From IMG/VR virus record IMGVR_UViG_3300024265_000059, positions 1 to 56,014 of that record: a DNA stretch of 56,014 bases. One strand, given 5' to 3'. Positions 2,805-56,014 of the stretch are shown here, in pieces. How positions within the stretch are numbered: position 1 is the stretch's first letter; every line of letters begins with the position of its first letter. The notes beneath the pieces were generated by a model that saw only the letters and a list, made by a program, of their open reading frames with translations, was not told the origin of the DNA and ran no database searches. The translations under genes and the position numbers were made by a program. This stretch comes from a virus. Its lineage: Duplodnaviria > Caudoviricetes.

Positions 2805-3747
2805 ATGTAGTTCATCTGCCATAAATCTGTATAATCATTGTCCATTTTCGTATTTCATGCAGTACATATTAGGCATGGAATCGCAGTCTGGGAAAGCTGC
2901 GCTTCAAGGGAGCATAGTACATCAGACTCTAGAGTGGATGATTCTCTTGAGTAAACATGGGAAAACTAATGTTGATCCCATGTGGCTACTGCATCGTGCT
3001 TGGGACGAACTCGTTGTTAAGTCTCCGACTATCAGTATTCGTAAGATAACTACAAGACTTGATAGAGAGACTGGACGCCACAAGGAAGCGGCAGATTTCA
3101 AGAAGTGTCGTGTTGCTCTGGAGCATATTCTGGCAAACGAATTTTACAATCCGTATAATTTGACAAAGATAATTTGTGTAGAACAGTGGTTCGCGTTGGA
3201 AATACCAGGAGAAGAGTGGAAGTGCCTGGACAAGGAAAACAAAGAACACCAATTTGCCATTCGTGGTTTGATAGACTTAGTACACGAGATCGACGAAGAT
3301 ACAATAGAAATCGTAGACTGGAAAACAGGTAAGAAAAAAAGCTTCTATACGCAAATAGATATCGACGAAGCAGTGTTGATGCGGGAAGTTCAGCCGAGGC
3401 TGTACCATCTCGCGGCATTCGATTTGTACCCACAATACAAAAATATATGGGTTACCTTCTATTACTGCAACGATGGTGGTCCAGTGACTATATCTCTTTC
3501 TCGTGATGATATACCTCTGACTATAGCTAGCCTTCACCGTTTTTTGACAACAGTTAGCAAGGATACGCTGATTCGTAGGAACCGTTCATGGAAATGCCGG
3601 ATGTGTAGTTTTGAGAAGAATAGTACGTGCCATAAGGTGTGGTCTGATTTGCACACCTTGGGGGGCGAATACGTTGAGCAGAAGTATGCAGACTTGACAT
3701 TTGAAGGCCAGCAACTAATTGGGAAGACAGAGGAATTAGATGTCTAA
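2791..3747 (+). CDS. PD-(D/E)XK nuclease (RecB/Cas4-like)
   Basis: S.S.I..Y..CP, G..VH..LE, RGLIDLV, IVDWKTG, Q..LY, C-terminal CRMC. Confidence 0.85.
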   Translation: MRVVRCSSSAINLYNHCPFSYFMQYILGMESQSGKAALQGSIVHQTLEWMILLSKHGKTNVDPMWLLHRAWDELVVKSPTISIRKITTRLDRETGRHKEAADFKKCRVALEHILANEFYNPYNLTKIICVEQWFALEIPGEEWKCLDKENKEHQFAIRGLIDLVHEIDEDTIEIVDWKTGKKKSFYTQIDIDEAVLMREVQPRLYHLAAFDLYPQYKNIWVTFYYCNDGGPVTISLSRDDIPLTIASLHRFLTTVSKDTLIRRNRSWKCRMCSFEKNSTCHKVWSDLHTLGGEYVEQKYADLTFEGQQLIGKTEELDV

Positions 3748-16738: not shown

Positions 16739-18691
16739 ATGATCACGTTCAAGAAATGTAAATGCGAAGTAGAGAGAGGTAAATTTAGTGTCAACGATAT
16801 CCCCCTGGATTGCCCAGCCGTGTGGCAGCTTATCGCTACAGGACATACTGTGGGCGTATTTCAACTTGAGAAGAATCTGGGACAAGATTGGTCGAAGAAA
16901 GTTAAGCCGGATAGCCTGGAAGAACTCGCAGCCTTGACAGCCCTCCTTCGCCCCGGTCCTCTTGAAGCCGGTATGACGCAAGATTATGTAGACATCAAAT
17001 TTAAGCGCAAAAAAAACGAGTATTTACACCCAGCGCTAGAACCTATCCTTAAACCAACATTCGGATGTCTTGTGTATCAGGAACAAGCGATTCGCATAGC
17101 TACTGATATTGCCGGATTGAGTCCGGAGAGTGCTGACGAACTACGAAAAGCCATTGGCAAAAAGAAGCCAGAACTCATGGCTAAAGTCAAGAAAAAGTTC
17201 GTAGAAGGTGCCCAGAGCTATGGCAAAATCAGTCAGGAAATAGCAGAAGAAATTTTCGGATGGATTGAGAAGTGCCAACGATATTCGTTTAACAAATCAC
17301 ATGCAATATCCTACGGAATGATTGCGTATCAAACTGCATGGGTAAAGTGTCACTTTCCACAGGAGTTTTTCACCAGCTATCTGACCTATTCGCAATACAA
17401 GGGTGATCCTAAAGAAGAAATTTACAAACTCGTGCAAGACTCTAGATTATTTGGTATCGATATTTTTCCACCAGATATACGACGAGGAAATGTTCACTTC
17501 AAAATGGTTGATAAGCCAAGCAAAGGCATAGCATTTGGCCTGGCGCACATAAGGGGTGTCGGAGCATCAGCAATCCAAAAGATCGTCGCAGCGGGCGAGG
17601 AAACGCCAGCAATGGACCCTTTAGACGAGAATGTACTGAAGCACATGGGTTCTGCGTCGGTGGCTGCAAAATCAGATGCGGTAGAAGCAATTCACAATGG
17701 TTGTCCCAAGCAAGTAAAGTACGGCCTTAAAACTTGGGCAGATTTTTTGGCAGCAGTTCCTGCTTTTCACAGGAATGTTGGAATTGCTCTGATTAAATCT
17801 GGTGCTTGCGATTGCTACCACAGACCACGTAGCGAAATGGTTAGAGAACTCGAAATCGTACTCGGAACCACTGTGAGAGATCACACCGGAAAGAAAGTTG
17901 AAGTTAGAGGGTTAACCGAAAAAGAAAAGGGATACTTTTTCGCCCATCTACAAGAAGACATCATGACCACCAAACAAATCCTGCTAGAAATGTCTCAGCC
18001 CCCAGGAGAGAAAACCAAAACAATCAGACAGATGACCAAGCGAGAACTGGTAAAAACGGCTGTTGGATACCTAGACCAAGCGGATGTGGCTTTTGATGGC
18101 ATCACGGATGGGGACAGTAAATTCGTGTACACGTCTTCTGACGAAAAAGAGACTTGGTTGGACAACGTGCATAGCCGCACCAAAACAGCAATTGAAAAAC
18201 TCATGATTGAGAATGGTTATCAAGACATTGCAGTGAAGCCACCGTGTTCGAGCGAGGCGAGACGGACAAAGATGGCACAGAAAGCGGATATGTTGGAAGA
18301 TGAATTACAAGACACAAACATGGCAAATGCTACGGCTGAAAAACACTTCTTGGGCATTGCTCTATCATGCTCTCAGGCTGATGATGCGGATAATGCATTG
18401 GCTACCCATACATGTTTAGACATCGCAAGAGCGGCCAATAGTGAGTCCATTGCGGTATGCGTGATCATAGATAGTGTCAAGCATACAAAAACCAAGCGTG
18501 GACGTAATCCTGGTCAGCCGATGTGTTTCCTAACCATGTCTGACGCAACCTACTCGATCGATCATGCGGTTGTTTTTCCAGATGCTTTCGACAGACTGAA
18601 GGCATTTTGCAAAGACGATTTAATTGGTCTTGTGTTCGGCGAAAAAAAGAACGGTAGCTTTATCGTAAAAGATATTCAGAAATTGATGTAA
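16739..18691 (+). CDS. dnaE: DNA polymerase III alpha, C-terminal half (fingers, HhH, OB) of a split dnaE
   Basis: IPLD, T.GVFQLE, LLRPGPL, LVYQEQ, ADELRKAIGKKK, YSFNKSHA, FGL..IRGVG, OB-fold M.FLT.SD...VVFP. Confidence 0.93.
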   Translation: MITFKKCKCEVERGKFSVNDIPLDCPAVWQLIATGHTVGVFQLEKNLGQDWSKKVKPDSLEELAALTALLRPGPLEAGMTQDYVDIKFKRKKNEYLHPALEPILKPTFGCLVYQEQAIRIATDIAGLSPESADELRKAIGKKKPELMAKVKKKFVEGAQSYGKISQEIAEEIFGWIEKCQRYSFNKSHAISYGMIAYQTAWVKCHFPQEFFTSYLTYSQYKGDPKEEIYKLVQDSRLFGIDIFPPDIRRGNVHFKMVDKPSKGIAFGLAHIRGVGASAIQKIVAAGEETPAMDPLDENVLKHMGSASVAAKSDAVEAIHNGCPKQVKYGLKTWADFLAAVPAFHRNVGIALIKSGACDCYHRPRSEMVRELEIVLGTTVRDHTGKKVEVRGLTEKEKGYFFAHLQEDIMTTKQILLEMSQPPGEKTKTIRQMTKRELVKTAVGYLDQADVAFDGITDGDSKFVYTSSDEKETWLDNVHSRTKTAIEKLMIENGYQDIAVKPPCSSEARRTKMAQKADMLEDELQDTNMANATAEKHFLGIALSCSQADDADNALATHTCLDIARAANSESIAVCVIIDSVKHTKTKRGRNPGQPMCFLTMSDATYSIDHAVVFPDAFDRLKAFCKDDLIGLVFGEKKNGSFIVKDIQKLM

Positions 18692-46953: not shown

Positions 46954-47028
46954 TTAATTAGCACCTTCCCAGTCCCAAAGTTACAGTGGCACTGTCTATC
47001 CCAGACCTAAGTCTATCCTATCCAATGT

Positions 47029-47038
47029 ATTATACACC
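47029..47038 (-). promoter_or_regulatory. Putative late promoter GGTGTATAAT
   Basis: Directly after terminator 47051-47083, upstream of 46953. Confidence 0.6.
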
Positions 47039-47050
47039 AATATGGCCAAT

Positions 47051-47083
47051 AAAAAAAGGCCGAAAGCTTTCGCTCCCGGCCTT
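47051..47083 (-). terminator. Rho-independent terminator
   Basis: AAGGCCGGGAGC gaaa GCTTTCGGCC followed by a U7 run. Confidence 0.85.
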
Positions 47084-47110
47084 GGATATGTCGTATTTGA
47101 CTAGTCTACC

Positions 47111-47659
47111 TTAGAATCGCCTTTGGTCTTTCGTCTCTGTAGGAACGCACGTAACGATCGCCAAAAGTTCTACACCAGTGGAGAATCCCACACCAACTGC
47201 ATTGTTGGCTTGAGCGGACAAGGTTGTTCTCAAAGAACCGCCCTTCGGAACAGCAGTCCATGTCTGATCCAAACTCACATCGACCCGGTCGCCAGCATTG
47301 GATGGAGCCTTGAACAGGCTCTTGTCTGTATCTGACGATACACCTGAGCAATCAACCGATATTGCTGTATCCCAGACTACCGATGTTGGTGCTGTTGGGG
47401 ATGCATCAACTTCGTTGGAAGTCTGCAATGCCACAGTCAGATTAGACCCTGCGCCTGCAAAACCACTAGCGACAAGCGATACTGCTTGGACTTCAAATGC
47501 AACTACCTTTACGGCGAAAGGACAGTCCTTCGTGAAAATTGCTTCCGTATCGGTTACTGCCGATCCAGACACAGCCGTAGCGGATAGTGTCTTGTACATC
47601 TTGAATGGTTTTGGAGCCGGATTCAGATTCGCTCCCCATGTATCAGTTACTAATGGCAT
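47111..47659 (-). CDS. Putative virion structural protein
   Basis: Monocistronic (promoter 47751, GGAGG SD, terminator); A/S/T/V-rich beta protein. Confidence 0.55.
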   Translation of the reverse strand: MPLVTDTWGANLNPAPKPFKMYKTLSATAVSGSAVTDTEAIFTKDCPFAVKVVAFEVQAVSLVASGFAGAGSNLTVALQTSNEVDASPTAPTSVVWDTAISVDCSGVSSDTDKSLFKAPSNAGDRVDVSLDQTWTAVPKGGSLRTTLSAQANNAVGVGFSTGVELLAIVTCVPTETKDQRRF

Positions 47660-47742
47660 AACTCTCTACCTCCCTAAAAAAGATAAGGCTACTGAGATTC
47701 CGCCCAACGTAGGAACGAAGGCTTAGTAGATTCACCAATGGT

Positions 47743-47751
47743 TTATACACC
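47743..47751 (-). promoter_or_regulatory. Putative late promoter GGTGTATAA
   Basis: Motif copy upstream of 47659. Confidence 0.55.
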
Positions 47752-47815
47752 ACGGGTATTTTTATGGGGGCAGATGCCGTTATTCCTGTGTTTCCCACAT
47801 TGCAAGAGATAATAA

Positions 47816-47889
47816 CAGGCCGAGCAAGGTTCGAACTTGCAACCTCCAGGTTCAAAGCCTGGCGCTCTGTCCAGTTGAGCTATCGGCCC
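47816..47889 (-). tRNA. tRNA-Gln(UUG)
   Basis: Cloverleaf; anticodon arm CCAGG-CTTTGAA-CCTGG; G1.U72 pair. Confidence 0.88.
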
Positions 47890-47892
47890 ATA

Positions 47893-47977
47893 CGGATGGC
47901 GGTGGACTCGAACCACAGACGTTTGACCGCCCCAACCGGTTAGCAACCGGCGGCAGGGCCTTTCTGCTTCACCATCC
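47893..47977 (-). tRNA. tRNA-Ser(GCU)
   Basis: GCCGG-TTGCTAA-CCGGT, long variable arm, G73. Confidence 0.88.
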
Positions 47978-48031
47978 AAAGACCCCATTCTATGGAGTAT
48001 ATATACTCCTTAGAACAAGGTAAATCCAAAA

Positions 48032-48117
48032 CGGAAGATAGAGGAATCGAACCCCCGACGCTCATCACGCCGCCCTCGGGTTCAAACCGAGTTTCCGACC
48101 ATTCAGAGGTATCTTCC
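48032..48117 (-). tRNA. tRNA-Ser(UGA)
   Basis: CTCGG-TTTGAAC-CCGAG, long variable arm, G73. Confidence 0.88.
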
Positions 48118-48126
48118 AGTGCGCAC

Positions 48127-48160
48127 AAAAAAACCGGACAATCCCAAGGGACCATCCGGT
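48127..48160 (-). terminator. Intrinsic terminator (attenuator) 9 nt upstream of tRNA-Ser(UGA)
   Basis: ACCGGAUGGUCC cuug GGAUUGUCCGG followed by U7. Confidence 0.85.
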
Positions 48161-48189
48161 TCTGATTCTGTGTTTTAGTGTACTCGAAT

Positions 48190-48261
48190 CTACACAGCAT
48201 CCCCCAGACGGCCAAGAGACCGTTGACTACTCGATTGGGATGACTGCTGTCGATTTTTCAT
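48190..48261 (-). CDS. Ser/Gln-rich leader peptide MKNRQQSSQSSSQRSLGRLGDAV (putative attenuator leader)
   Basis: GGAG SD 6 nt before ATG; 6 Ser + 4 Gln among codons 5-15; stop about 30 nt before the terminator. Confidence 0.75.
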   Translation of the reverse strand: MKNRQQSSQSSSQRSLGRLGDAV

Positions 48262-48337
48262 CTTGTTCTCCAAAAAAAACCAGCCCTTGATGCACGTAAC
48301 CCAATTGAGAAAGAGGTGCGGCTGGTGTGTTACTATG

Positions 48338-48346
48338 TTATACACC
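48338..48346 (-). promoter_or_regulatory. Putative promoter GGTGTATAA upstream of the Ser/Gln leader
   Basis: Motif copy immediately 3' of tRNA-Ile. Confidence 0.55.
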
Positions 48347-48348
48347 AA

Positions 48349-48424
48349 TGCGCCTAGATGGATTTGAACCACCGACATCACGCTTATCAGGCGTGCGCTC
48401 TGAGCCAGACTGAGCTACAGGCAC
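48349..48424 (-). tRNA. tRNA-Ile(GAU)
   Basis: CACGC-CTGATAA-GCGTG. Confidence 0.9.
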
Positions 48425-48429
48425 TTCAA

Positions 48430-48502
48430 CGGGCCGGGAAGGAGTCGAACCCTCAACCAACGGCTTTGGAAACCGACGCTCTGCCAATTAAGCTACCGAC
48501 CC
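48430..48502 (-). tRNA. tRNA-Trp(CCA)
   Basis: CGGT-TTCCAAA-GCCG, G73. Confidence 0.88.
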
Positions 48503-48530
48503 ACTATCTTGTTCGTTCAAAAAAACACAA

Positions 48531-48604
48531 CGGGCCGGGTGGGACTCGAACCCACGATAGCCGGGTTAGAAACCCAGTCCTTTGTCCATCTAAGGTACCA
48601 GCCC
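48531..48604 (-). tRNA. tRNA-Arg(UCU)
   Basis: CTGGG-TTTCTAA-CCCGG. Confidence 0.88.
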
Positions 48605-48608
48605 AACA

Positions 48609-49697
48609 TTATTCGACATTATCCCGTTCTAATTTGTTATTGTGAGGACGAATCCTCTTCATCACATAGCTGTCGACCTTGTGATAGTGACTATCGAGTA
48701 AAGCAAACATGGCAGGCGTATGCTTGACTTTTTGTGCCTTGGCTGCAAAATCGCATCTTGGAACTCGATCCATAATTCCGCCGAATTCTTCGAAATAGAT
48801 GTCATCAAACTCCTTATGAATTTCACTATGTAATGTCTGATACTGCTTCTCTAGTACTTCAACAATACTGTTAAGAAGATCGTGGTACTCTATATCCACT
48901 TGACTCCAAACGTCTTTTGTCACTTCTCCATCTACCATGTTGTTCCACATGACTAGCGGAGTAAGGTTGCTCAACAGATGATGCCGCCTGAAATAATCTT
49001 CCGACTTGATTTTGACACGAAAGCCATTGGTAAATCTGATAACAAAACCTTCTTGCTCATTACCCGGAATGGTCTTCAATGATCCACGACACGCGCCTAA
49101 CCAATTTTGATCATAGGACTTTACGAGTGTAAAGCCGTAATCGCTGGCAAAACTTGCTACTTCGCACCAACGATATTCTTTGCCGGTGTGTCTATTATAC
49201 GCAGAAAGCAAAACCAAATCCTCACGATCTCCGTAGTCAACAACAATTTTCGTGATTGGGCATATCAATTCGAAAACTAGAGTAACCTCATCTGGGAATC
49301 CATCAAGATCGTAATTATCATCTAGAAATTTCGAAGCCCATATCGCTCCAGGACTAGTGAATGAACCGCGAGAAGCAACCTTGTGCTGACCAGCATGACG
49401 ATAAAGAGAGCCAAACCATCCATCCTCTTTTTTGAATATTCTGAACCCATCGTGCCATGGTAGATTACGCTCCTGAGTGTCTGTTCTCTCGTTCATGTTG
49501 AAGAACTTGGGGAAGGTCTGTGCCACAACCTCTCCTGTCTGGCGATTGAAGATTATACCTCTGCTGTTTATCGTAGTTTCATCCCACTGTTTGCAGTGAT
49601 TGGTGTAGTTGTAGATACGAAGATCATCAAGATCAGCACATCTCAGCACGCCTTCTGCAACCAGACGATCTCGTATTTCTATTTGTGGGTGTTTCAT
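48609..49697 (-). CDS. RNA ligase, T4 Rnl1 family
   Basis: YNY, SRGIIF, FPKFFN, motif I KEDG, ASRGSF.S, FELI.P..IVVDY, EGFVI, RVKIK..DY. Confidence 0.88.
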   Translation of the reverse strand: MKHPQIEIRDRLVAEGVLRCADLDDLRIYNYTNHCKQWDETTINSRGIIFNRQTGEVVAQTFPKFFNMNERTDTQERNLPWHDGFRIFKKEDGWFGSLYRHAGQHKVASRGSFTSPGAIWASKFLDDNYDLDGFPDEVTLVFELICPITKIVVDYGDREDLVLLSAYNRHTGKEYRWCEVASFASDYGFTLVKSYDQNWLGACRGSLKTIPGNEQEGFVIRFTNGFRVKIKSEDYFRRHHLLSNLTPLVMWNNMVDGEVTKDVWSQVDIEYHDLLNSIVEVLEKQYQTLHSEIHKEFDDIYFEEFGGIMDRVPRCDFAAKAQKVKHTPAMFALLDSHYHKVDSYVMKRIRPHNNKLERDNVE

Positions 49698-49707
49698 GTC
49701 TTTTTTC

Positions 49708-50187
49708 CTAGACTTTCCCTGAAATCAATTGGTCTATTTCTTCAATTGCGATATTCGTCATTTTCTGCAATTCTTTGTCATCGCAATCTTTGTTTTTTTT
49801 TCTGAAGTTTCTTCTGATATTTCGGACAGATACCTTGGCGTCTTCTCCAAGTTTGTTCATCTTTGAAGCAACTTCTCGTCTGGTATCTCCAGAAATAAGC
49901 GGTATGTTTACCACCACGGTTGTCTTAGAAAATTTGTACGCATCAAAACCTTGCTTCTTCAATTCTTCCTCTACCTTCGCCATTATCGATGGATCATATG
50001 GTGTTATAGATATTCTTCTGTCTTTTTGGTTGATCAAGCACAGATGTTCAAGCGGTGTCTGTTGACCACTGTAATCTATTGTCACAGTAGAAATTAGATC
50101 GTCATTGATATTGCCGCCCATTCCTTTAAGTTGATCTCTAAGAAAATCAACAGTTTTCTTCATGAGCGATCTGGTTTTTTCCATCAC
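49708..50187 (-). CDS. frr: Ribosome recycling factor (shortened)
   Basis: M.K..D.L..., I.YSGQ.TPL, I.I.PYD, IP.ISG..R, E.AKVSVRNIRR, ELQK.T...I.EID. Confidence 0.85.
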   Translation of the reverse strand: MMEKTRSLMKKTVDFLRDQLKGMGGNINDDLISTVTIDYSGQQTPLEHLCLINQKDRRISITPYDPSIMAKVEEELKKQGFDAYKFSKTTVVVNIPLISGDTRREVASKMNKLGEDAKVSVRNIRRNFRKKNKDCDDKELQKMTNIAIEEIDQLISGKV

Positions 50188-50197
50188 AAACCTCCAA

Positions 50198-50270
50198 TGG
50201 GTCGGGTGGGATTCGAACCCACGGCCCCCCGCTTAAAAGGCGGAAGCTCTGTCCACTGAGCTACCAACCC
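50198..50270 (-). tRNA. tRNA-Lys(UUU)
   Basis: TCCGC-CTTTTAA-GCGGG. Confidence 0.9.
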
Positions 50271-50273
50271 ATA

Positions 50274-50347
50274 TGGGAATGGTGAGATTCGAACTCACGA
50301 CCCGCTGGTTAAGAGCCAGCCGCTCTGATCCGCTGAGCTACATTCCC
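50274..50347 (-). tRNA. tRNA-Lys(CUU)
   Basis: GCTGG-CTCTTAA-CCAGC. Confidence 0.9.
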
Positions 50348-50350
50348 GAA

Positions 50351-50421
50351 TACCAGTGACAGGAGTCGAACCTGCGCCTCCTGATCCACAGTCAGGCGTT
50401 CTGCCGTTAAACCACACCGGC
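50351..50421 (-). tRNA. tRNA-His(GUG)
   Basis: CCTGA-CTGTGGA-TCAGG; A73, no encoded G-1. Confidence 0.88.
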
Positions 50422-50429
50422 TACGACAA

Positions 50430-50514
50430 TGGGCAGGATAGGACTCGAACCTACACGCCCTGTTAAGGGACCGGGTTTACAGCCCGGCGAGCCAGCCAAT
50501 TGCTCAACCTACCC
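50430..50514 (-). tRNA. tRNA-Tyr(GUA)
   Basis: CCGGG-CTGTAAA-CCCGG, long variable arm. Confidence 0.9.
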
Positions 50515-50739
50515 TTATGACTCAACCACCAATTGTTCTGGCATGGCCAGAAAAACACTCCCACCAGTAGAGACTATATAAACAATTTTGTTTCCGTTAC
50601 AACCTCTTGTGGAGTAATTGATCCATCCTTCGAGTATAACCGTTTTGTAACCAGGAGAATAATGTCCTGGCGCATGTTTTTGATACACGAATGATTCGCC
50701 AACAATTAATTCATCACGTTTCGCTTGTCTGTATTCCAT
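50515..50739 (-). CDS. Hypothetical protein
   Basis: 74-aa ORF filling the inter-tRNA space, GAGAG SD-like. Confidence 0.5.
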   Translation of the reverse strand: MEYRQAKRDELIVGESFVYQKHAPGHYSPGYKTVILEGWINYSTRGCNGNKIVYIVSTGGSVFLAMPEQLVVES

Positions 50740-50810
50740 GTCAACTCTCTACTGCAAAACAACTTTCGAAATCAAACCAGTTTAGTGTATGTAAGAATTC
50801 CCATGATTTT

Positions 50811-51182
50811 TTAACCTCTCTTGAGTTTATTCTGCTCGCGAATTTTTATTGATTGACGTTTCACAGCCTTCCAAACCCAATCTGGTAACCACGGATAATC
50901 GACCTGAAATTCCTCAATAAAAAACAAATATTCCGCTATCCCCTCTGCCCACATTTTAATATGAAGATTCAAATACCCCTTAGCGAGAAGTACATTCCTA
51001 AGTAAATCAGATTCTCTACAAGGAACATTCTTGCCATCTGAGTCCTTGAAAGCAAAAGCTTCTATTGCAGAGTACCCATCTTTGTGTTCATAAACAAATG
51101 GCAGTTCGCCCATCACCCGCATACGAGAGTTAACCAAAACATATAGATTAAAGTTGCGACGTACCTTGTGACCAATTTTCAT
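50811..51182 (-). CDS. Hypothetical protein
   Basis: Start moved to ATG 51182 because the longer ORF overlaps tRNA-Leu(CAA). Confidence 0.55.
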   Translation of the reverse strand: MKIGHKVRRNFNLYVLVNSRMRVMGELPFVYEHKDGYSAIEAFAFKDSDGKNVPCRESDLLRNVLLAKGYLNLHIKMWAEGIAEYLFFIEEFQVDYPWLPDWVWKAVKRQSIKIREQNKLKRG

Positions 51183-51202
51183 ACTTATACCGACTTCCTT
51201 AA

Positions 51203-51286
51203 TGCCTAAGACTGGATTCGAACCAGTACGCCCTTTCGGACACGGGTTTTTGAAACCCGCGCGTCTGCCAGTTCCGCCACATAGGC
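51203..51286 (-). tRNA. tRNA-Leu(CAA)
   Basis: CGGGT-TTCAAAA-ACCCG, long variable arm, A73. Confidence 0.9.
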
Positions 51287-51290
51287 TCAA

Positions 51291-51363
51291 TGCCCCGAAT
51301 AGGATTCGAACCTATACTGACATGGTTCTAAACCATGTTCCTCTGCCGTTGGGATACCGGGGC
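51291..51363 (-). tRNA. tRNA-Leu(UAG), short variable loop
   Basis: CATGG-TTTAGAA-CCATG, 5-nt variable loop, A73. Confidence 0.82.
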
Positions 51364-51465
51364 TCATCTCCGATCCTTACTGTTTTTCCTAACAAAATTT
51401 CGGACAGCTAAGACAAATTCGTGTTCAGTATATCTTTTGGTCACATCACACACTCACGAATAAAA

Positions 51466-51549
51466 TGCCTGCGCTGGGAGTCGAACCCAGAAACCCTTGC
51501 GGGCACGAGGGTTTAAGCCCCGCTCCTTTGCCTGTTTGGACACACAGGC
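51466..51549 (-). tRNA. tRNA-Leu(UAA)
   Basis: CGGGG-CTTAAAC-CCTCG, long variable arm, A73. Confidence 0.88.
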
Positions 51550-51557
51550 TACAACGA

Positions 51558-51758
51558 CTAAAACCAAGTTCTTTTTGTTTTCCCAGAAATCAAATCAAAA
51601 CCTTCACCACATTCATGACATTTCGTGCAATGCCAATACGTTGGATTGACCACCCAAACTGTTGGATAACAACGATGATTTCTGTGATACCACGAACATC
51701 GAAGCCATTTGTGCAAAAATCTTGTAATACGTTTCAAACAATTATCACCATATTTCAC
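51558..51758 (-). CDS. Small Cys/His-rich hypothetical protein
   Basis: GGAGG SD; C...H...C.KC pattern. Confidence 0.55.
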   Translation of the reverse strand: MKYGDNCLKRITRFLHKWLRCSWYHRNHRCYPTVWVVNPTYWHCTKCHECGEGFDLISGKTKRTWF

Positions 51759-51771
51759 AATTCACCTCCAA

Positions 51772-51844
51772 TGGAAGGGAAGGGACTCGAACCCTCGACA
51801 TCTGGCTTGCAAAGCCAGCGCTCTCCCAACTGAGCTACCCCCCC
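51772..51844 (-). tRNA. tRNA-Ala(UGC)
   Basis: CTGGC-TTTGCAA-GCCAG; G3.U70 identity pair. Confidence 0.92.
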
Positions 51845-52410
51845 TATTTATCCAATTCGATCCTTCTTTTCTTGCTGTGCCTCTTTTTCTTCTGTGACAC
51901 ATAGCCTTTTGGTATAGGCTCGTCAATTACTTTGTTTACTGCTTCGATTGCCTTTTCCATATTCTCTTTGATATCTACTGTGGTGATATCATCGACATCT
52001 ATCGTAGTTGTAACCGGAAGCATGGTGTCTTCGATTTGCTCTTTCGAAAGCCCCCGATTAGGTATCACACCACTACCAGATATTGGAATGGCATGGATAC
52101 CTGGAGAGAAAAATGGTTGTTGATGATCATTTTTGAACACCTTGAAAATCATACCATCTGGTATGTATTGACTTTCAATTATCTTGACTCCATACATTCT
52201 CATTTGTCCATCTGGATCGGCACCGCCGTTACTTCTGTGGAACATCTTCTGCACTTCATACAAATCATTGGAGCTAATCAAAAAAGCTTCTACGTTATCA
52301 AGCTGTTGACCTTGTTGCTCAATCTCTCTTATGGTATCATGAAATTGCTTACGTATTCGATGCGTAGCCGCCTCAATTTCCGGATCGGAACTATGGTACA
52401 TATCAGCCAT
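51844..52410 (-). CDS. Hypothetical protein
   Basis: Start set at ATG 52410, just after the stop of ORF 52412-52573. Confidence 0.55.
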   Translation of the reverse strand: MADMYHSSDPEIEAATHRIRKQFHDTIREIEQQGQQLDNVEAFLISSNDLYEVQKMFHRSNGGADPDGQMRMYGVKIIESQYIPDGMIFKVFKNDHQQPFFSPGIHAIPISGSGVIPNRGLSKEQIEDTMLPVTTTIDVDDITTVDIKENMEKAIEAVNKVIDEPIPKGYVSQKKKRHSKKRRIELDK

Positions 52411-52411
52411 T

Positions 52412-52573
52412 TTACCCATCCCACTGTTCGTGTAGTCTGTCATCGCAGCGAGCACATTGCCATCCACTCATGGTAGAAGATCGATTGAAATCGGTTTCCC
52501 AATTATGCATATGAAGACAGATATAATTGCATCCAGCAAACCAACAAATCATCCTACGAATCATTCTCTTCAT
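52412..52573 (-). CDS. Small Cys-rich protein (53 aa; not in the ORF track)
   Basis: GGAG SD; MKRMIRRMICWFAGC...QCARC. Confidence 0.55.
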   Translation of the reverse strand: MKRMIRRMICWFAGCNYICLHMHNWETDFNRSSTMSGWQCARCDDRLHEQWDG

Positions 52574-52586
52574 GTCTCTTCTCCAA

Positions 52587-52659
52587 CTTACCCGAAGGGA
52601 TTCGAACCCTTGACCTAGCGGTTAACAGCCGCTCGCTCTATCCCCTGAGCTACGGGCAA
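52587..52659 (-). tRNA. tRNA-Asn(GUU)
   Basis: AGCGG-CTGTTAA-CCGCT; U1-A72, G73. Confidence 0.9.
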
Positions 52660-52662
52660 GAC

Positions 52663-52735
52663 TCGGGGTGAAAGGACTCGAACCTTCAACTTCGCGGCCC
52701 CAAACCGCGCACTCTTCCAATTGAGCTACACCCCG
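52663..52735 (-). tRNA. tRNA-Pro(UGG)
   Basis: CGCGG-TTTGGGG-CCGCG; C1-G72, A73. Confidence 0.92.
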
Positions 52736-53034
52736 TTTTTCACTAACTTCAAAAAACCATCAAGCGTTGAACATGTTGAATTGACAGTACACAATTTCTC
52801 AAACTCCTGGCAATGATCATCTATCAAAACGTCAGCGATTGGTTTTACGTGAGATTCTTTATCTCTATAGTCAAATCCCATCAACTGAGCGATAACTTGG
52901 CCATCATCGTGACAAGACCAAACAATAACATGATGACCACCTTTCTTAGCCCAATCCTGAAATCTGGCAAATTGAGGATGCAAATTGCCTCTTATTATAA
53001 CTGTGTCATCAAGGTCCAGAAGGATTCGCATCAA
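52726..53034 (-). CDS. Minimal HAD-superfamily phosphatase-like protein
   Basis: ILLDLDDTVI motif I, VIVWS motif II, K...DVLIDD motif IV. Confidence 0.7.
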   Translation of the reverse strand: MMRILLDLDDTVIIRGNLHPQFARFQDWAKKGGHHVIVWSCHDDGQVIAQLMGFDYRDKESHVKPIADVLIDDHCQEFEKLCTVNSTCSTLDGFLKLVKNGV

Positions 53035-53669
53035 TCTACTCCGATTACTTCAGTTTCGATTCCACGTTTCCTAGCTTCCGTCACAATATGCTTAGTCCCT
53101 TTAGACTTACTCAGATCGTCGTGGAAGGCAATCACAAGACTCGGTTTTGTATCCAGCATCTTGATGTTCCTTCTCGGTCCTGCTGACAACCCATACTTCT
53201 TCCAAGCTGCCCAGAACGTAACAACTTCAAAACCCATATTCAAAGCAAGGTTACGAGCCATGGTATCAACACCATCGCAACCGCCCTCAACTATAATAGT
53301 ATCAGACGGAAGATCGAAAAGTCGCTTTCTTATCACCTCAACTCCATCGTGTGACCAATCTCTACTGCCGCAAATAACTACCTTCATGGTTTTCTCCAAA
53401 TATTCAGCGATCACATCTCCGTGACAAGCTTCCGGCTTACAAAAACAACCAAGCCGCTTTCCCTTCAACTCTTTTGTTCTACGTGTAAATTCAGGATCAA
53501 TTTTCAATCGATTCAGAAAATACTTGCGATAGAGTTCTATGACCTTCTTTCTACCACCATCTTGGGCAACGCTGAAAGGATTGCCGAAATATCCATCATG
53601 GCCGTTCCCCGCCCTGCCAATGTATTCATCGTATTCTTGTCGACGAATATTAACGACGGTTGTCTTCAT
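53031..53669 (-). CDS. DUF4326 + DUF2493(SLOG)-like fusion protein
   Basis: YIGR....FGNPF...LKGKRLGCFCKP.ACHGDVI; then VVICGSRDW, GG..GVD, W.KYG.SAGP.RN.KML, AFH....SKGT. Confidence 0.75.
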   Translation of the reverse strand: MKTTVVNIRRQEYDEYIGRAGNGHDGYFGNPFSVAQDGGRKKVIELYRKYFLNRLKIDPEFTRRTKELKGKRLGCFCKPEACHGDVIAEYLEKTMKVVICGSRDWSHDGVEVIRKRLFDLPSDTIIVEGGCDGVDTMARNLALNMGFEVVTFWAAWKKYGLSAGPRRNIKMLDTKPSLVIAFHDDLSKSKGTKHIVTEARKRGIETEVIGVD

Positions 53670-53685
53670 GGTCCGATATTCCTAC

Positions 53686-53710
53686 AAAAAAACTCGCGAT
53701 TTCTCGCGAG
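53686..53710 (-). terminator. Intrinsic terminator (attenuator) ahead of the DUF4326/tRNA/frr/ligase block
   Basis: CUCGCGA gaaa UCGCGAG followed by U7. Confidence 0.88.
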
Positions 53711-53743
53711 CAAAAGTCTTATCTGAAATCGTTCACAGAGAGA

Positions 53744-53833
53744 CTAGCCCGCATCACCACCAGGCGCGCGCAGATTGAGTACGGCTGGGGCTAATGGATA
53801 ATTCCGTCCGGGTTTTCTATACAAGCTTCTCAC
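53744..53833 (-). CDS. Leader peptide MRSLYRKPGRNYPLAPAVLNLRAPGGDAG (putative attenuator leader; not in the ORF track)
   Basis: AGGAGG SD 8 nt before GTG; lies between promoter and terminator. Confidence 0.7.
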   Translation of the reverse strand: MRSLYRKPGRNYPLAPAVLNLRAPGGDAG

Positions 53834-53854
53834 GATTCATTCCTCCTACATATC

Positions 53855-53883
53855 ATTATACCCCAAACCAACAGGTTTGTGCC
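53855..53883 (-). promoter_or_regulatory. Promoter GGCACAAAC-N13-GTATAAT
   Basis: Third copy of the bipartite motif. Confidence 0.72.
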
Positions 53884-53908
53884 AAGAAAAATGAAAAAAA
53901 ACTGAAAA

Positions 53909-53983
53909 TAGCGGGAGAGGGATTCGAACCCTCGACCTCCGGGTTATGAGCCCGATGGGCTAACCAAACTGCCCTACCCCGCA
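53909..53983 (-). tRNA. Initiator tRNA-fMet(CAU)
   Basis: GGG/CCC anticodon stem, loop CTCATAA, unpaired 1:72 (U/U). Confidence 0.9.
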
Positions 53984-54047
53984 TCAAGTTGCCGCTGATA
54001 CGGCTCAGCGGCCAAGCCTTTATGGTTCCCCTGCCTCTGGCAGACGA

Positions 54048-54170
54048 TTACAGAAAAAACCAACAACCGGTTCCGATAACCAAAAGAGCGGCTACGATCC
54101 ATTTCCAATACATCAAAAAATAGATCGGCCACCTGATGGGCCACGGCAAATCATCAATTGACCAACTCAT
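54048..54170 (-). CDS. Small membrane protein (40 aa; not in the ORF track)
   Basis: GGAGG SD; MSWSIDDLPWPIRWPIYFLMYWKWIVAALLVIGTGCWFFL. Confidence 0.55.
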   Translation of the reverse strand: MSWSIDDLPWPIRWPIYFLMYWKWIVAALLVIGTGCWFFL

Positions 54171-54252
54171 CCTTTACCTCCTAATCGTTCTTCCATCCGC
54201 CCTCTGGGGCGTGTGATCGTCCTTATCAGACCTTCACAGTGGCATTTGTCAC

Positions 54253-54573
54253 TCATTTCGATTCGTCCCCTTTCATGTGCTTGAACATCTCGATCTCGGC
54301 CAATCTCTTATCGGCTCCCTTGCGAGTCTCAAAACAGCCAAGCTTTTTGCCCTTCTTGCTGTATATGCAGTACGGCTTACTTTTCGTGCCATCCTTACGG
54401 ATCACAGCTTTTGCTGATTCCAATGCATCTTCCGTCGCCTTCTCAAGTTCTTCATTCCAGTCAGTCACAGGACCACCTGCCTTTTGTCGTCTTGCCAGAA
54501 TCTCTTTTATCGATAGATAATACTTGTACGGCCTCTTGCCTCTTCTCTCTGCGTGCGTATGCCTTGTGCTCAT
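54253..54573 (-). CDS. Hypothetical basic protein
   Basis: VIRK...YCIYSKKGKKLGC..T...A.KRL..IE.FKH. Confidence 0.6.
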   Translation of the reverse strand: MSTRHTHAERRGKRPYKYYLSIKEILARRQKAGGPVTDWNEELEKATEDALESAKAVIRKDGTKSKPYCIYSKKGKKLGCFETRKGADKRLAEIEMFKHMKGDESK

Positions 54574-55007
54574 ATGACATAGTCTACGACATAGTCGTCT
54601 TGTATGCTCTTGAAAATATCGATTACGATACGATCGGGCATAAACAACACCTTGTCTCTCATTTGGACTTCTTTGACAAGAAACGGGGCGTCGAAAACCA
54701 AACCACCAAGCATGTATCCCGATTGGACGGCTTGTTCGTATGTGTCGAAGAAGCCATGCGAAGCCCTTCCCTTAACTAGGACGAATTTCCCAGCATGTTT
54801 TTCAAACCACCACATTCGATTTTCTTCAAAAAACTTCAGTTCTGTCCCAAGAACAGACAGAGCACATCTTTTCTTGTGCTCGCTAATTGAGGAAACTGGT
54901 ATCTTCAGGAAACAAAAGTGACACTTTATACAGCATGGCCCCATGTGTCTAGTCTCCATCCCATCTTGGTTTCTGTGGCAATCGCATCGGCATTCTTCGC
55001 TTCCCAT
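54570..55007 (-). CDS. Hypothetical protein (Cys-rich N-terminus; DUF5678-like C-terminus)
   Basis: FF..N...L/F..H.GKFVLVKG....GFFDT...A. Confidence 0.55.
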   Translation of the reverse strand: MGSEECRCDCHRNQDGMETRHMGPCCIKCHFCFLKIPVSSISEHKKRCALSVLGTELKFFEENRMWWFEKHAGKFVLVKGRASHGFFDTYEQAVQSGYMLGGLVFDAPFLVKEVQMRDKVLFMPDRIVIDIFKSIQDDYVVDYVI

Positions 55008-55086
55008 ATCATATACCTCTCAGACTACAAGCAGGACGACAAAAGTCAGCAGCGGCCACTACAAGAGGAATTAGGCCCATTACAGA

Positions 55087-55368
55087 TCATCTTACGCAAT
55101 TGCACAATTGCTGTCCTTCTGATGGTGATGGTTTTCCGCAAAGCCTACAATATTCTGGTTCGTCTAAGCCTTCTTCTGAGTATCTAAGACAGAAACTACA
55201 AGGTGGAGATATATGACACGAACAACAATCATCGTTCCATCTTAAATCCACGCAGGCTATGGCGTCAGCATAATCGTTACTTGATGAGCCAACTGCACTA
55301 CGACAATCGCATTGAACAACGGAAGTAAATAACTGTATTTTTCCAGTGTCTCTGCAATCTTTACACAT
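55087..55368 (-). CDS. Cys-rich Zn-binding hypothetical protein
   Basis: CKDC..TG...C.C; CSCHISPPCSFC; CRLC...C..C. Confidence 0.55.
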   Translation of the reverse strand: MCKDCRDTGKIQLFTSVVQCDCRSAVGSSSNDYADAIACVDLRWNDDCCSCHISPPCSFCLRYSEEGLDEPEYCRLCGKPSPSEGQQLCNCVR

Positions 55369-55838
55369 TAAAGTCCATCCATAGCGTCTACGAAACCACC
55401 TGCTGTATAATATCCACGCTCTTTGGCAGTTTTCTTAGCATGACAATTGGCGCATCGGACCACACATTTTTCTATTTCTTTCAGTATTGTTGGCCAAATA
55501 CGTGTTGTCAGCATTGTTGTAATATTAGCCGTTTTTGTTCCTGTCACATGATCGAATTCAAGTGTCGCTGGATGAGTTTCTCCACAGTCGATACATGGAT
55601 GGTTTTTCAAATAGTCGAGCATCAAAGGCCAATTAATACCACAAAGTTTTTTATGATTTACTTTGGAAAGATTTATTCTTTTGTTGCGAAAATCTTCTGA
55701 TTGATCGTATCTCTCTTTATTATGTATGCTATGACACGCTTTGCACCAAGAACAATACCCATCCTTGCGAGCCCGACGTATGGCGAATTCGGAAACCGGC
55801 TTTTCTTTACCGCATTTTGAACATCTCTTGATTCTCAT
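55368..55838 (-). CDS. HNH endonuclease with N-terminal Zn ribbon
   Basis: KRCSKCG..K...EF....CKAC; CIDCG.....LEFDH....EIEKC.V.CANCH. Confidence 0.85.
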   Translation of the reverse strand: MRIKRCSKCGKEKPVSEFAIRRARKDGYCSWCKACHSIHNKERYDQSEDFRNKRINLSKVNHKKLCGINWPLMLDYLKNHPCIDCGETHPATLEFDHVTGTKTANITTMLTTRIWPTILKEIEKCVVRCANCHAKKTAKERGYYTAGGFVDAMDGL

Positions 55839-55843
55839 TCTGT

Positions 55844-56014
55844 TTACTTGAATGTTACAGAATCTAATGCTGAGACAAAACCGGGTTCGAATTTTTCTGC
55901 ATTATCGGTAAATAATTCCCAACAAACATCAAAACCGGACACACACGCAGAGACATCCCATCCGACCACATTGCTCGTCACGCCTTCAAGGAGCGTACAA
56001 CCACCACCCAAGAG
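55844..56014 (-). CDS. Hypothetical protein, 3' end only (truncated by window edge)
   Basis: Open frame from the window end to TAA at 55844. Confidence 0.4.
   Translation of the reverse strand, partial: LLGGGCTLLEGVTSNVVGWDVSACVSGFDVCWELFTDNAEKFEPGFVSALDSVTFK

What the first reader, a model, noticed from the sequence alone, without database searches (positions are those of the whole stretch)
53686..53883. Second leader-peptide attenuator heading the 13-tRNA/frr/RNA-ligase block
Seen on the minus strand: promoter (53883-53855), AGGAGG SD, GTG-started 29-aa ORF MRSLYRKPGRNYPLAPAVLNLRAPGGDAG (53833-53744), then a GAAA-tetraloop terminator with U7 (53710-53686). Antiterminator: GCGGGC (last codons, 53752-53747) pairs with GCUCGC (53711-53706, terminator 5' arm), with inner AGUCU/AGACU and UCUG/CAGA helices. 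A competing helix is UAGCCC (53793-53788) with GGGCUA (53750-53745). Leader codons include AGA x2, TTG, TTA, CTC, CTG, TAT x2, AAA, AAT x2, four Pro and four Ala. These match 9 of the 13 downstream tRNAs (Arg-UCU, all three Leu, Tyr, Lys-UUU, Asn, Pro, Ala). His, Trp, Ile and AAG codons are absent. Because 13 tRNAs cover many codons, part of the match could be chance. Inference: a multi-codon 'tRNA pool sensor'.
Basis: partly seen in the sequence, partly recalled or inferred. Interest (0 to 1): 0.88.

Follow-up and report, generated by a model that had tools for sequence, protein, structure and literature searches.

The report
Phage leader-ORF attenuator before tRNA genes
A small translated reading frame and three competing RNA hairpins, conserved in a group of uncultured large phages, look like a ribosome-sensing switch that decides whether transcription runs on into the phage's tRNA genes; the idea that it reads the phage's own tRNA pool codon by codon is not supported.

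Summary
On the minus strand, 53885-53667 holds a conserved promoter, an AGGAGG Shine-Dalgarno site, a 29-codon ORF, a strong intrinsic terminator and the start of the next gene.

The same single-copy cassette occurs in 17 distinct related sequences. Wherever at least 1 kb of downstream DNA is held, tRNA genes follow on the same strand.

- **Terminator:** it covaries (5 compensatory pairs, 0/500 shuffles).
- **Antiterminator:** a hairpin runs from the last ORF codons and stop codon to the terminator's 5' arm. It is present in all homologues (z -2.4 to -8.7; outer helix 84/84 cells paired).
- **Third helix:** it pairs the same ORF end with upstream codons (108/108 cells paired).
- **ORF:** it stays open in 12/12 leaders while its peptide drifts (pN/pS 0.3-1.7, against 0.14-0.28 for the neighbouring gene). 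Translation seems to matter, not the peptide.

Best reading: a trp-type ribosome-mediated transcription attenuator without tandem sensor codons (confidence 0.6).

The "multi-codon tRNA pool sensor" part is not supported. Matching 9 of 13 tRNAs is chance (P 0.26-0.40). One near-complete relative keeps the leader while lacking most of the matching tRNAs. There are no expression data and the host is unknown.

The parts
53909..53983 (-). tRNA-Met(CAU) directly upstream of the cassette. In several relatives an extra terminator hairpin sits between this tRNA, or the upstream genes, and the promoter.
   Evidence: ARAGORN; Rfam; relatives
53855..53908 (-). Conserved promoter block: T-rich stretch, -35-like TTGGCA (53885-53880), ACAAAC (53880-53875) and GTTTGGGGTATAAT (53868-53855). 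The spacer is 19 nt.
   Evidence: Sequence; exact 13-mer unique in the window; conserved in L001, L014, L015 and the metagenome homologues; not listed by the consensus scan
53842..53847 (-). Shine-Dalgarno AGGAGG of the leader ORF
   Evidence: invariant in the 12 aligned leaders
53744..53833 (-). Leader ORF: GTG start, 29 codons plus TAG. Its last codons and stop codon lie in the 5' strand of the antiterminator.
   Evidence: frame open in 12/12 homologous leaders while the other frames carry stops; pN/pS 0.28-1.67
53770..53784 (-). Segment 1, the 5' strand of the anti-antiterminator: CCGUA (53784-53780) and CUGC (53773-53770). It pairs with UGCGG (53753-53749) and GUGG (53760-53757).
Evidence: RNAalifold; 108/108 cells paired, slid controls 33-62%.
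53745..53761 (-). Conserved 17-mer GGUGGUGAUGCGGGCUA, the hub (segment 2) that can pair either upstream or with the terminator's 5' arm
   Evidence: Identical in L014 and L015, which were found independently of it; the GCGGG core is kept in L044 and L050; single copy per genome
53706..53752 (-). Antiterminator hairpin: outer helix 53752-53747 with 53711-53706, and inner hairpin 53745-53715
   Evidence: z -3.33; homologues z -2.4 to -8.7; outer helix 84/84 cells paired; whole hairpin 89% paired with 4 double-change pairs, 0/500 shuffles
53686..53711 (-). Intrinsic terminator: 8-bp stem, GAAA loop, U7
   Evidence: 5 compensatory pairs, 0/500 shuffles
53667..53685 (-). Conserved ribosome-binding region and start codon of the first gated gene (GGA.UAUCGGAC.AUG). 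It is kept even where the downstream gene differs.
53031..53669 (-). First gated gene: DUF4326 + YspA/SLOG domain protein, 212 aa
   Evidence: Pfam; PHROGs
52586..52735 (-). tRNA-Pro(UGG) and tRNA-Asn(GUU), the first tRNAs of the gated block. tRNA-Pro overlaps the end of ORF 52726-53034, so no intergenic space for a separate promoter exists after the terminator.

Best explanation
This is a ribosome-mediated (leader-ORF) transcription attenuator carried by a clade of uncultured 160-180 kb phages. It gates transcription from a conserved promoter into a block that always contains tRNA genes. In the window that block also holds a DUF4326/SLOG gene, a ribosome-recycling-factor homologue and an Rnl1-type RNA ligase.

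Mechanism (geometry shown, dynamics inferred): the G-rich end of the leader ORF, with its stop codon, can pair in two ways.
- It can pair with C-rich codons upstream (hairpin 1:2).
- It can pair with the 5' arm of the terminator, extended by an inner hairpin (antiterminator 2:3).
- The terminator itself is hairpin 3:4.

The three outcomes:
- A ribosome that reaches the last codons or the stop covers segment 2, so the terminator forms and transcription stops.
- A ribosome held up about 6-12 codons before the stop melts 1:2 and leaves segment 2 free. The antiterminator then forms and RNA polymerase reads on.
- With no ribosome, 1:2 plus the terminator is the predicted equilibrium in most homologues.

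The signal is therefore the progress of the leading ribosome. Which codon or condition slows it is unknown.
For: 1. All parts are present and conserved in 17 distinct sequences, found by four routes: promoter pattern, 17-mer pattern, neighbouring-protein search and covariance model.
2. The terminator has 5 pairs with compensatory changes; 0/500 shuffles reach this.
3. The antiterminator hairpin folds at z -2.83 to -8.66 in 10 cassette-bearing leaders and z -2.40 in the L001 variant. Its outer helix is paired in 84/84 cells against 19-51% when slid. The full 14-pair stem is 89.1% paired with 4 double-change pairs, 0/500 shuffles.
4. Hairpin 1:2 is paired in 108/108 cells against 33-62% when slid. 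This includes a CCA to CUG (Pro to Leu) double change that keeps both pairs by wobble.
5. The ORF is open in 12/12 leaders with lengths of 20, 26, 27, 29 and 46 codons, always ending at the same stop inside the antiterminator strand. Frames +1 and +2 carry stops in 11/12 and 12/12. AGGAGG is invariant in 12 aligned leaders, and GGAGG is present in L050.
6. The peptide evolves nearly neutrally (pN/pS 0.28-1.67), and synonymous sites are slower than in the adjacent gene. For L014-L027, leader pS is 0.19 against 0.58 for DUF4326; DUF4326 pN/pS is 0.14-0.28. This is the pattern of a regulatory ORF within a constrained RNA.
7. Ribosome-mask folding:
   - With no ribosome, terminator P>=0.97 in 7 of 9 leaders.
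   - With a mid-to-late stall, antiterminator P>=0.8 in 8 of 9.
   - With the A site in the last 6 codons or on the stop, the antiterminator strand is masked in 9 of 9.
8. Only about 20 nt separate the U-run from the next start codon, and that stretch is conserved even before different genes. Downstream expression must therefore pass this terminator.
9. tRNA genes follow on the same strand in 13 of 13 loci or genomes with at least 1 kb of downstream DNA.
Against: - There are no expression or termination data, and no RNA run holds the region.
- The metagenome homologues were retrieved with the exact 17-mer plus a T-run. The invariance of segment 2 in those rows is therefore by construction, and the shuffle controls for helices 1:2 and 2:3 on those alignments are uninformative (500/500).
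- The alignment for one search was fitted to the antiterminator model.
- Hairpin 1:2 in the window is not more stable than shuffles (z -0.22).
- Predicted behaviour of the untranslated nascent RNA is inconsistent: P(antiterminator) is <=0.25 in 5 of 9 leaders and >=0.99 in 4 of 9.
- L030 never favours the antiterminator at full-length equilibrium (maximum 0.35). L044 favours it even without a ribosome.
- L044 and L021 lack a visible SD.
- L001 has an 85-codon ORF and a weak antiterminator (z -2.4, 5/200).
- There are no tandem regulatory codons, so the sensed quantity is undefined.
- The promoter spacer is 19 nt.
Confidence: 0.6

Rival explanations
1. One reading: the leader is a multi-codon sensor of the phage's own tRNA pool. 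Stalling occurs at codons read by the downstream phage tRNAs, so low levels of those tRNAs induce their own genes.
For: The cassette always precedes tRNA genes. Under a permissive wobble rule, 19-20 of 28 leader codons are read by phage tRNAs, against a mean of 12-15 (P 0.012-0.033). AGA and AAU are invariant in the 12 aligned leaders, and the window encodes tRNA-Arg(UCU) and tRNA-Asn. AAU, CCA and GCA lie in the modelled stall zone, and Pro, Asn and Ala are the first three downstream tRNAs in the window and in G001.
Against: Matching 9 of 13 tRNAs is chance (P 0.40 loose, 0.26 strict); for 10 of 16 tRNAs, P is 0.55 and 0.37. Codon coverage is not significant under strict wobble (P 0.11-0.22). 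AGA is the phage's commonest Arg codon (42%). G002/L015, 96% complete, has only Tyr, Leu x3, Trp and Glu tRNAs (one further weak Rfam hit). It keeps the same leader; by my eye count, only 3 of its 26 codons are cognate. The Pro and Ala codons are explained by the C-rich pairing strand. No tandem codons are present.
Confidence: 0.12
2. The region is a constitutive element rather than a switch. It would be a short stand-alone transcript (an sRNA or mRNA of a dispensable mini-ORF) with a structured 3' end and a leaky terminator. Alternatively it is a promoter/terminator insulator and recombination linker of the PeSL type. On this view, translation of the ORF does not control termination.
For: Promoter, about 170 nt of RNA and a strong terminator is the anatomy of an sRNA gene. 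The upstream stem-loop, T-run and promoter in relatives resemble PeSL composites (PMC2839356 passages, PMC4122927 abstract). Different ORF bodies (27-29, 46 and 85 codons) and different downstream genes sit between the same conserved ends. This is what recombination at conserved linkers produces. The whole-leader fold is unremarkable.
Against: The antiterminator shares its 3' strand with the terminator's 5' arm in every homologue, so the two cannot coexist. Every ORF variant ends at the same stop inside that strand. The cassette is single-copy per genome, whereas PeSLs are dispersed repeats. The next gene has no promoter space of its own.
Confidence: 0.17
3. The ORF encodes a functional micropeptide with a conserved ...NPRAxGGDAG C-terminus. 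The RNA hairpins would be only its transcription terminator and an mRNA-stabilising structure.
For: There is a conserved SD and start, an open frame in all homologues, and a recognisable shared C-terminal motif.
Against: pN/pS is 0.28-1.67, against 0.14-0.28 in the neighbouring gene. In homologues found without the 17-mer, the C-terminal block changes non-synonymously (GGDAG, GSGAG, RGDAG, NGGVD) while the GCGGG nucleotides stay. The Pro to Leu change keeps RNA pairing. There is no Pfam or PHROG family.
Confidence: 0.05
4. The switch between terminator and antiterminator is set by a trans factor, not by the ribosome. Candidates are a protein, an uncharged tRNA or a small molecule that binds the conserved 17-mer.
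For: The 17-mer is conserved beyond what the two helices strictly need, and the context is tRNA genes.
Against: No Rfam family, including T-box, matches at E<=1. The antiterminator is a plain hairpin without an obvious pocket. This model leaves ORF and SD maintenance unexplained.
Confidence: 0.06

Closest known systems
Classical leader-peptide transcription attenuators of enterobacterial operons (trpL, hisL, pheL, and pheM ahead of pheST). Recalled from textbook knowledge; reviews seen only as listings.
   Same: A promoter-proximal short ORF with its own SD; three overlapping helices (1:2, 2:3, 3:4) with an intrinsic terminator as 3:4; the end of the leader ORF lies in segment 2, so a ribosome that finishes translation favours termination. 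pheM is also a case where the gated genes belong to the translation apparatus.
   Different: There are no tandem codons for one amino acid. The element is carried by a phage. The gated genes are tRNAs and translation or RNA-repair factors rather than biosynthetic enzymes. The antiterminator is a long, near-continuous hairpin of 45-48 nt that includes the stop codon. ORF length and sequence vary widely between relatives.
PeSL (promoter-early stem-loop) cassettes of T4-type phages (PMC2839356 passages read; PMC4122927 abstract read)
   Same: A phage composite of a sigma70-like promoter with an AT-rich upstream tract and a terminator stem-loop. It flanks variable small ORFs, and it is plausibly a site of modular exchange.
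   Different: PeSLs are dispersed repeats in hyperplastic regions, arranged as stem-loop then promoter. This cassette is single-copy, arranged as promoter, ORF, antiterminator and terminator, with mutually exclusive helices and a fixed stop-codon position.
Drug- or metabolite-responsive leader ORFs that act through ribosome stalling (erm/cat-type leaders, ARE-ABCF leaders, tnaC, mgtL). Recalled, apart from the abstract line of PMC6851288 shown in the search listing.
   Same: The sensing does not rely on runs of one codon. Ribosome position on a short ORF selects between RNA structures.
   Different: No arrest motif could be tested here, and the peptide is poorly conserved. The output here is an intrinsic terminator upstream of tRNA genes.
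T-box leaders (Rfam RF00230)
   Same: A terminator/antiterminator switch linked to tRNA status.
   Different: There is no Rfam match at E<=1. The leader is only about 170 nt, is translated, and lacks a recognisable Stem I or specifier.
Attenuator-derived sRNA rnTrpL and peptide peTrpL of Sinorhizobium (abstracts seen in the listing: PMC6614838, PMC7298713)
   Same: The terminated leader RNA and its peptide could have a second life in trans.
   Different: Nothing here tests a trans function.

Membership tests
Ribosome-mediated (leader-peptide) transcription attenuator | Short ORF with ribosome-binding site in the 5' leader, maintained by selection | tested here: met
   AGGAGG plus start invariant in 12 aligned leaders. 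Frame open in 12/12 while the other frames carry stops. L044 and L021 lack a visible SD.
Ribosome-mediated (leader-peptide) transcription attenuator | Intrinsic terminator between the leader ORF and the regulated genes | tested here: met
   8-bp stem plus U7. 5 compensatory pairs, 0/500 shuffles. About 20 nt to the next start codon.
Ribosome-mediated (leader-peptide) transcription attenuator | Antiterminator helix mutually exclusive with the terminator | tested here: met
   Shares the terminator's 5' arm. z -3.33 in the window and -2.4 to -8.7 in homologues. 84/84 cells paired. 4 double-change pairs, 0/500 shuffles.
Ribosome-mediated (leader-peptide) transcription attenuator | A ribosome completing the ORF occludes the antiterminator strand | tested here: met
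   The stop codon lies inside the 5' strand in all homologues. Masked in 9/9 modelled leaders. This shows geometry only, not kinetics.
Ribosome-mediated (leader-peptide) transcription attenuator | Anti-antiterminator (1:2) helix within the ORF | tested here: inconclusive
   108/108 cells paired against 33-62% slid. But the 3' side is invariant by ascertainment, the window fold has z -0.22, and the nascent-RNA predictions disagree among homologues.
Ribosome-mediated (leader-peptide) transcription attenuator | Tandem or enriched regulatory codons for the sensed amino acid | tested here: not met
   No runs of one codon in any leader. This defines the amino-acid-operon subclass, not the mechanism.
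Ribosome-mediated (leader-peptide) transcription attenuator | Termination responds to leader translation | not testable with these tools
   No RNA data. Host unknown.
PeSL cassettes | Dispersed multi-copy repeat in the genome | tested here: not met
   The 17-mer occurs once per genome in G000-G003 at <=3 mismatches. The model R1 gives one hit in the window. Only a shorter promoter-like motif recurs, 2 to 6 times.
T-box riboswitch | Match to the Rfam covariance model | tested here: not met
   No hit in 47000-56014 at E<=1.
Functional small-protein gene | Purifying selection on the amino-acid sequence | tested here: not met
   pN/pS 0.28-1.67, against 0.14-0.28 for the adjacent DUF4326 gene.

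The most novel reading that the evidence does not exclude
The cassette is a phage-encoded sensor of translation capacity. The trigger would be ribosomes slowing on the leader, for example because of codon-supply mismatch with the host, ribosome shortage late in infection, or host defences that cleave tRNAs. Polymerase would then read through into a rescue module of tRNA genes, a ribosome-recycling factor and an Rnl1-type RNA ligase. That would be an inducible counter-measure and a feedback loop on tRNA supply, something not described for phage tRNA clusters.
Probability: 0.2. Interest if true: 0.85.

Novelty: new variant of a known kind. Interest (0 to 1): 0.64.

Why it matters
Many large phages carry tRNA clusters, but how their expression is controlled is largely unknown.

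A conserved leader-ORF attenuator at the head of such a cluster would link tRNA and translation-factor gene transcription directly to how well ribosomes are translating. It would give a testable mechanism for when and why phages switch on their own tRNAs.

It would also extend leader-peptide attenuation in three ways: to phages, to RNA genes as targets, and to a form without tandem sensor codons.

I found no paper describing this. Full-text searches returned no phage case. That is a limited search of open-access text only.

Tried and rejected
- **Rfam** at E<=1 over 47000-56014 found only tRNAs and chance hits, with nothing in the leader.
- **blastn against 50,697 phage records** matched only the tRNA-Met. 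tblastn with the polymerase gave at most 34% identity, so there is no cultured relative and no host clue.
- **Pfam and PHROGs** on the 29-, 27-, 46- and 85-aa ORFs found no family.
- **BLASTP of the 29-aa peptide against the L001 85-aa ORF** gave no alignment. My by-eye C-terminal likeness rests on the nucleotide alignment only.
- **The promoter+SD pattern** in IMG/VR gave four unrelated loci besides L014 and L015.
- **The 17-mer alone** gave 6 unrelated coding hits among 9 stretches.
- **Whole-leader folding** was unremarkable.
- **Expression:** no RNA holder is listed for the region, and read laying was not used.
Model R1 finds no second copy in the window.
- **Considered by eye and dropped:**
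  - Stop-codon read-through or frameshifting at the conserved ORF end. Relatives use either UAA or UAG, and their downstream spacers differ in length (30-33 nt), so no common extended frame is conserved.
  - An RNase III-type processing hairpin, because it cannot explain the strand shared with the terminator.
  - A phage middle-promoter activator box at ACAAAC, which is untestable here.
- **First Pfam call:** it failed because one ORF reference contained stops. I dropped that ORF and repeated the search.
- **Not used:** supplementary files of papers were not consulted, and the look-up of encoding contigs was not called.
Full report
**What is at the coordinates.** On the minus strand, in order:
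- tRNA-Met (53983-53909);
- a T-rich tract and a promoter-like block: TTGGCA 53885-53880, a 19-nt spacer, TATAAT 53860-53855;
- AGGAGG (53847-53842);
- a GTG-started 29-codon ORF (53833-53744);
- a hairpin region;
- an 8-bp, GAAA-loop, U7 intrinsic terminator (53711-53686);
- 16 nt later, the ATG of a 212-aa DUF4326 + YspA/SLOG protein (53669-53031).

The terminator is one of only two strong ones on this strand in the whole window. The other, 47083-47056, closes the tRNA block. Sixteen tRNA genes, a ribosome-recycling-factor homologue and an Rnl1-type RNA ligase lie between the two terminators. tRNA-Pro overlaps the end of the second ORF after the terminator. This leaves no intergenic room for a separate promoter before the first tRNAs. 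Rfam has no family for the leader.

The window is the whole of a 56-kb viral record, estimated at 34% of a genome. It has no cultured relative.

**Relatives.**
- A search with the downstream protein found a 181-kb phage (L001). It has the same promoter block and a terminator in the same place, but an 85-codon ORF between them.
- The promoter pattern then found two 160-kb phages (L014, L015). They carry the full cassette with 27-codon ORFs ending in the same 17 nucleotides, GGUGGUGAUGCGGGCUA plus stop.
- That 17-mer found a 180-kb phage (L021, 46-codon ORF) among 9 IMG/VR stretches; the other 6 were unrelated coding hits.
- With a T-run added, the pattern found 15 metagenome stretches, all of them cassettes and 11 of them new sequences. 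Because these were retrieved with the exact 17-mer, its invariance in them proves nothing.
- Less biased routes added two more. L044 (=L045) came through an alignment of the DUF4326 domain. L050 came through a covariance model.
- Only 5 of 80 DUF4326-bearing viral loci carry the cassette, namely those with at least 63% DUF4326 identity. It therefore marks a narrow clade.
- It is single-copy per genome.

**The RNA structures.**
- *Terminator.* It is paired in 93.7% of cells, with 5 pairs showing compensatory changes; 0 of 500 shuffles reach this.
- *Antiterminator.* In every homologue a 44-48-nt hairpin runs from GCGGGC, the last two codons, through the stop codon and an inner stem-loop to the 5' arm of the terminator.
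  - It folds at -16 to -26 kcal/mol.
  - z is -3.33 in the window. It is -2.83 to -8.66 in nine other cassette-bearing leaders. It is -2.40 in the L001 variant.
  - In per-sequence folds it is more stable than the terminator hairpin in 12 of 12.
  - Its outer helix is paired in 84 of 84 cells, against 19-51% when slid. The terminator arm varies only C to U opposite the G's.
  - On a model-fitted alignment of 18 sequences the 14-pair stem is 89.1% paired with 4 double-change pairs; 0/500 shuffles reach this. That alignment leans towards the structure.
  - Because the hairpin shares a strand with the terminator, the two cannot coexist.
- *Upstream helix.* RNAalifold also finds a helix pairing the same G-rich ORF end with C-rich codons.
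  - It is paired in 108 of 108 cells, against 33-62% when slid.
  - In the window clade, CCA became CUG (Pro to Leu), keeping both pairs by wobble.
  - In the window alone this fold is not better than shuffles (z -0.22). I rate this third helix as likely but not established.

**The ORF.**
- The frame is open in 12 of 12 leaders, with lengths of 20 to 46 codons, always stopping at the same place inside the antiterminator strand. Frames +1 and +2 carry stops in 11 and 12 of 12. Shuffles are open with P of 0.05-0.41 each.
- AGGAGG at 8-9 nt from the start is invariant in 12 aligned leaders. L050 has GGAGG. L044 and L021 have no visible SD.
- The peptide drifts: pN/pS is 0.28-1.67 across 31 pairs, against 0.14-0.28 for the adjacent DUF4326 domain. 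Synonymous sites change more slowly than in that gene; for L014-L027, pS is 0.19 against 0.58.
- In the homologues found without the 17-mer, the C-terminal residues change (GGDAG, GSGAG, RGDAG, NGGVD) while the GCGGG nucleotides stay.
- Selection therefore acts on being translated and on the RNA, not on the peptide. This is the signature of a regulatory leader ORF.

**Mechanism.** I modelled a ribosome as masking everything up to 13 nt past the first A-site base.
- Without a ribosome, the full-length equilibrium has the terminator at P>=0.97 in 7 of 9 leaders. The exceptions are L021 (0.26) and L044 (0.00).
- With the A site about 6-12 codons before the stop, the equilibrium flips to the antiterminator (P>=0.8) in 8 of 9. 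L030 is the exception, with a maximum of 0.35.
- With the A site in the last six codons or on the stop, the antiterminator strand is covered in 9 of 9.

This is the logic of the trp-type attenuator. The geometry is shown; the kinetics are inferred. Predictions for the untranslated nascent RNA disagree among homologues (5 low, 4 high). I therefore cannot say whether no translation means termination, as in trp, or read-through.

**What is gated.**
- The 20 nt after the U-run, including the SD-start spacer, are conserved even where the next gene differs, as in L015/L038, L034, L026 and L050.
- Several relatives have an extra terminator just upstream of the promoter. There, the cassette's own promoter and terminator control entry.
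- In 13 of 13 loci or genomes with at least 1 kb downstream, tRNA genes follow on the same strand. These are the window, G001-G004, L044, L050, L027, L030, L036, L034, L035 and L029. In L036 the tRNAs begin only 130 nt after the cassette.
- The relatives share ancestry, so this is conserved synteny rather than 13 independent associations.

**The tRNA-pool claim.**
- Random 28-codon windows from 44 long ORFs of the window match as many tRNAs as the leader does. For 9 of 13 tRNAs the random mean is 8.1 (P 0.40) under loose wobble and 7.4 (P 0.26) under strict wobble. For 10 of 16 tRNAs, P is 0.55 and 0.37.
- Covered codons are raised only under the loose rule (P 0.012-0.033; strict 0.11-0.22). 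That excess comes from Pro and Ala codons, which form the C-rich pairing strand.
- AGA, invariant in the leaders, is simply the commonest Arg codon of this phage (42%).
- The near-complete G002 phage encodes only Tyr, three Leu, Trp and Glu tRNAs, yet has the same leader. By my eye count, 3 of its 26 codons are cognate.
A general ribosome-progress sensor remains the better statement.

**Comparison and novelty.**
- The element works like a classical leader-peptide attenuator and meets the structural criteria I could test. It lacks tandem sensor codons, sits in a phage and gates tRNA genes.
- It is not a PeSL, which is a dispersed repeat with a different order of parts; I read passages of PMC2839356 and the abstract of PMC4122927.
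- It is not a T-box.
- Three full-text searches found no phage case.
- I rate it a new variant of a known kind. It is of real interest but rests on comparative sequence analysis only.
- No RNA run holds the region and the host is unknown.

Noticed in passing
window 53984-54050 (-): A conserved structured element lies just upstream of tRNA-Met. It has two hairpins, CUGCC...GGCAG and GCCGCUGA...UCAGCGGC, and folds at -27.6 kcal/mol (z -2.58, 6/200 shuffles). Near-identical copies sit upstream of the cassette or its tRNA in L021, L027, L029, L034 and L038. Function unknown; it could be a processing or pause signal.
   Followed up: partly
window 47029-47083 (-): The 12-bp, GAAA-loop terminator that closes the tRNA block is followed at once by TTGGTGTATAAT and a 5' UTR of about 75 nt before the ORF at 46953. 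The same 12-mer recurs 1-3 times in each related genome. It is probably the promoter type of the next (tail-gene) operon. The UTR fold is unremarkable (z -1.37).
   Followed up: partly
window 53667-53685 (-) and homologues: The spacer between the SD-like GGA(G) and the start codon of the gene after the terminator (UAUCGGAC) is conserved even before unrelated genes. It could pair with the GGUCU strand of the inner hairpin, which would add a translational layer. This was not tested.
   Followed up: no
window 3740-6115 (+) and 16739-18691 (+): The Pol III alpha-like (DnaE-type) DNA polymerase is split into two ORFs about 10 kb apart. They match the N- and C-terminal parts of the same PHROG family (phrog_405).
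   Followed up: no
window 48609-50187 (-): A ribosome-recycling-factor homologue (159 aa) and an Rnl1-family RNA ligase (362 aa) are embedded among the tRNA genes. This is a translation-maintenance and tRNA-repair flavoured module.
   Followed up: partly
L001 5750-6007 (+); L021 7216-7356 (+): In two relatives the leader ORF is much longer: 85 codons in L001 and 46 in L021, with unrelated N-terminal sequence. It still ends at the same stop inside the hairpin. In L021 the ATG lies only 2 nt after the -10-like hexamer, so the real start or promoter there is unclear.
   Followed up: partly
L029, L035, L014, L015, L030, L036, L038, L044 upstream of the promoter: An extra terminator-like hairpin plus T-run lies immediately upstream of the cassette promoter. 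It is preceded by a conserved CCCACCATGTGTGG-like palindrome. It is absent in the window, L034 and L037. This is a PeSL-like stem-loop/promoter composite.
   Followed up: no
window 52663-52735 (-) versus ORF 52726-53034 (-): tRNA-Pro overlaps the last codons of the preceding 102-aa ORF. The mRNA and the tRNA precursor must therefore be one transcript that is later processed.
   Followed up: no
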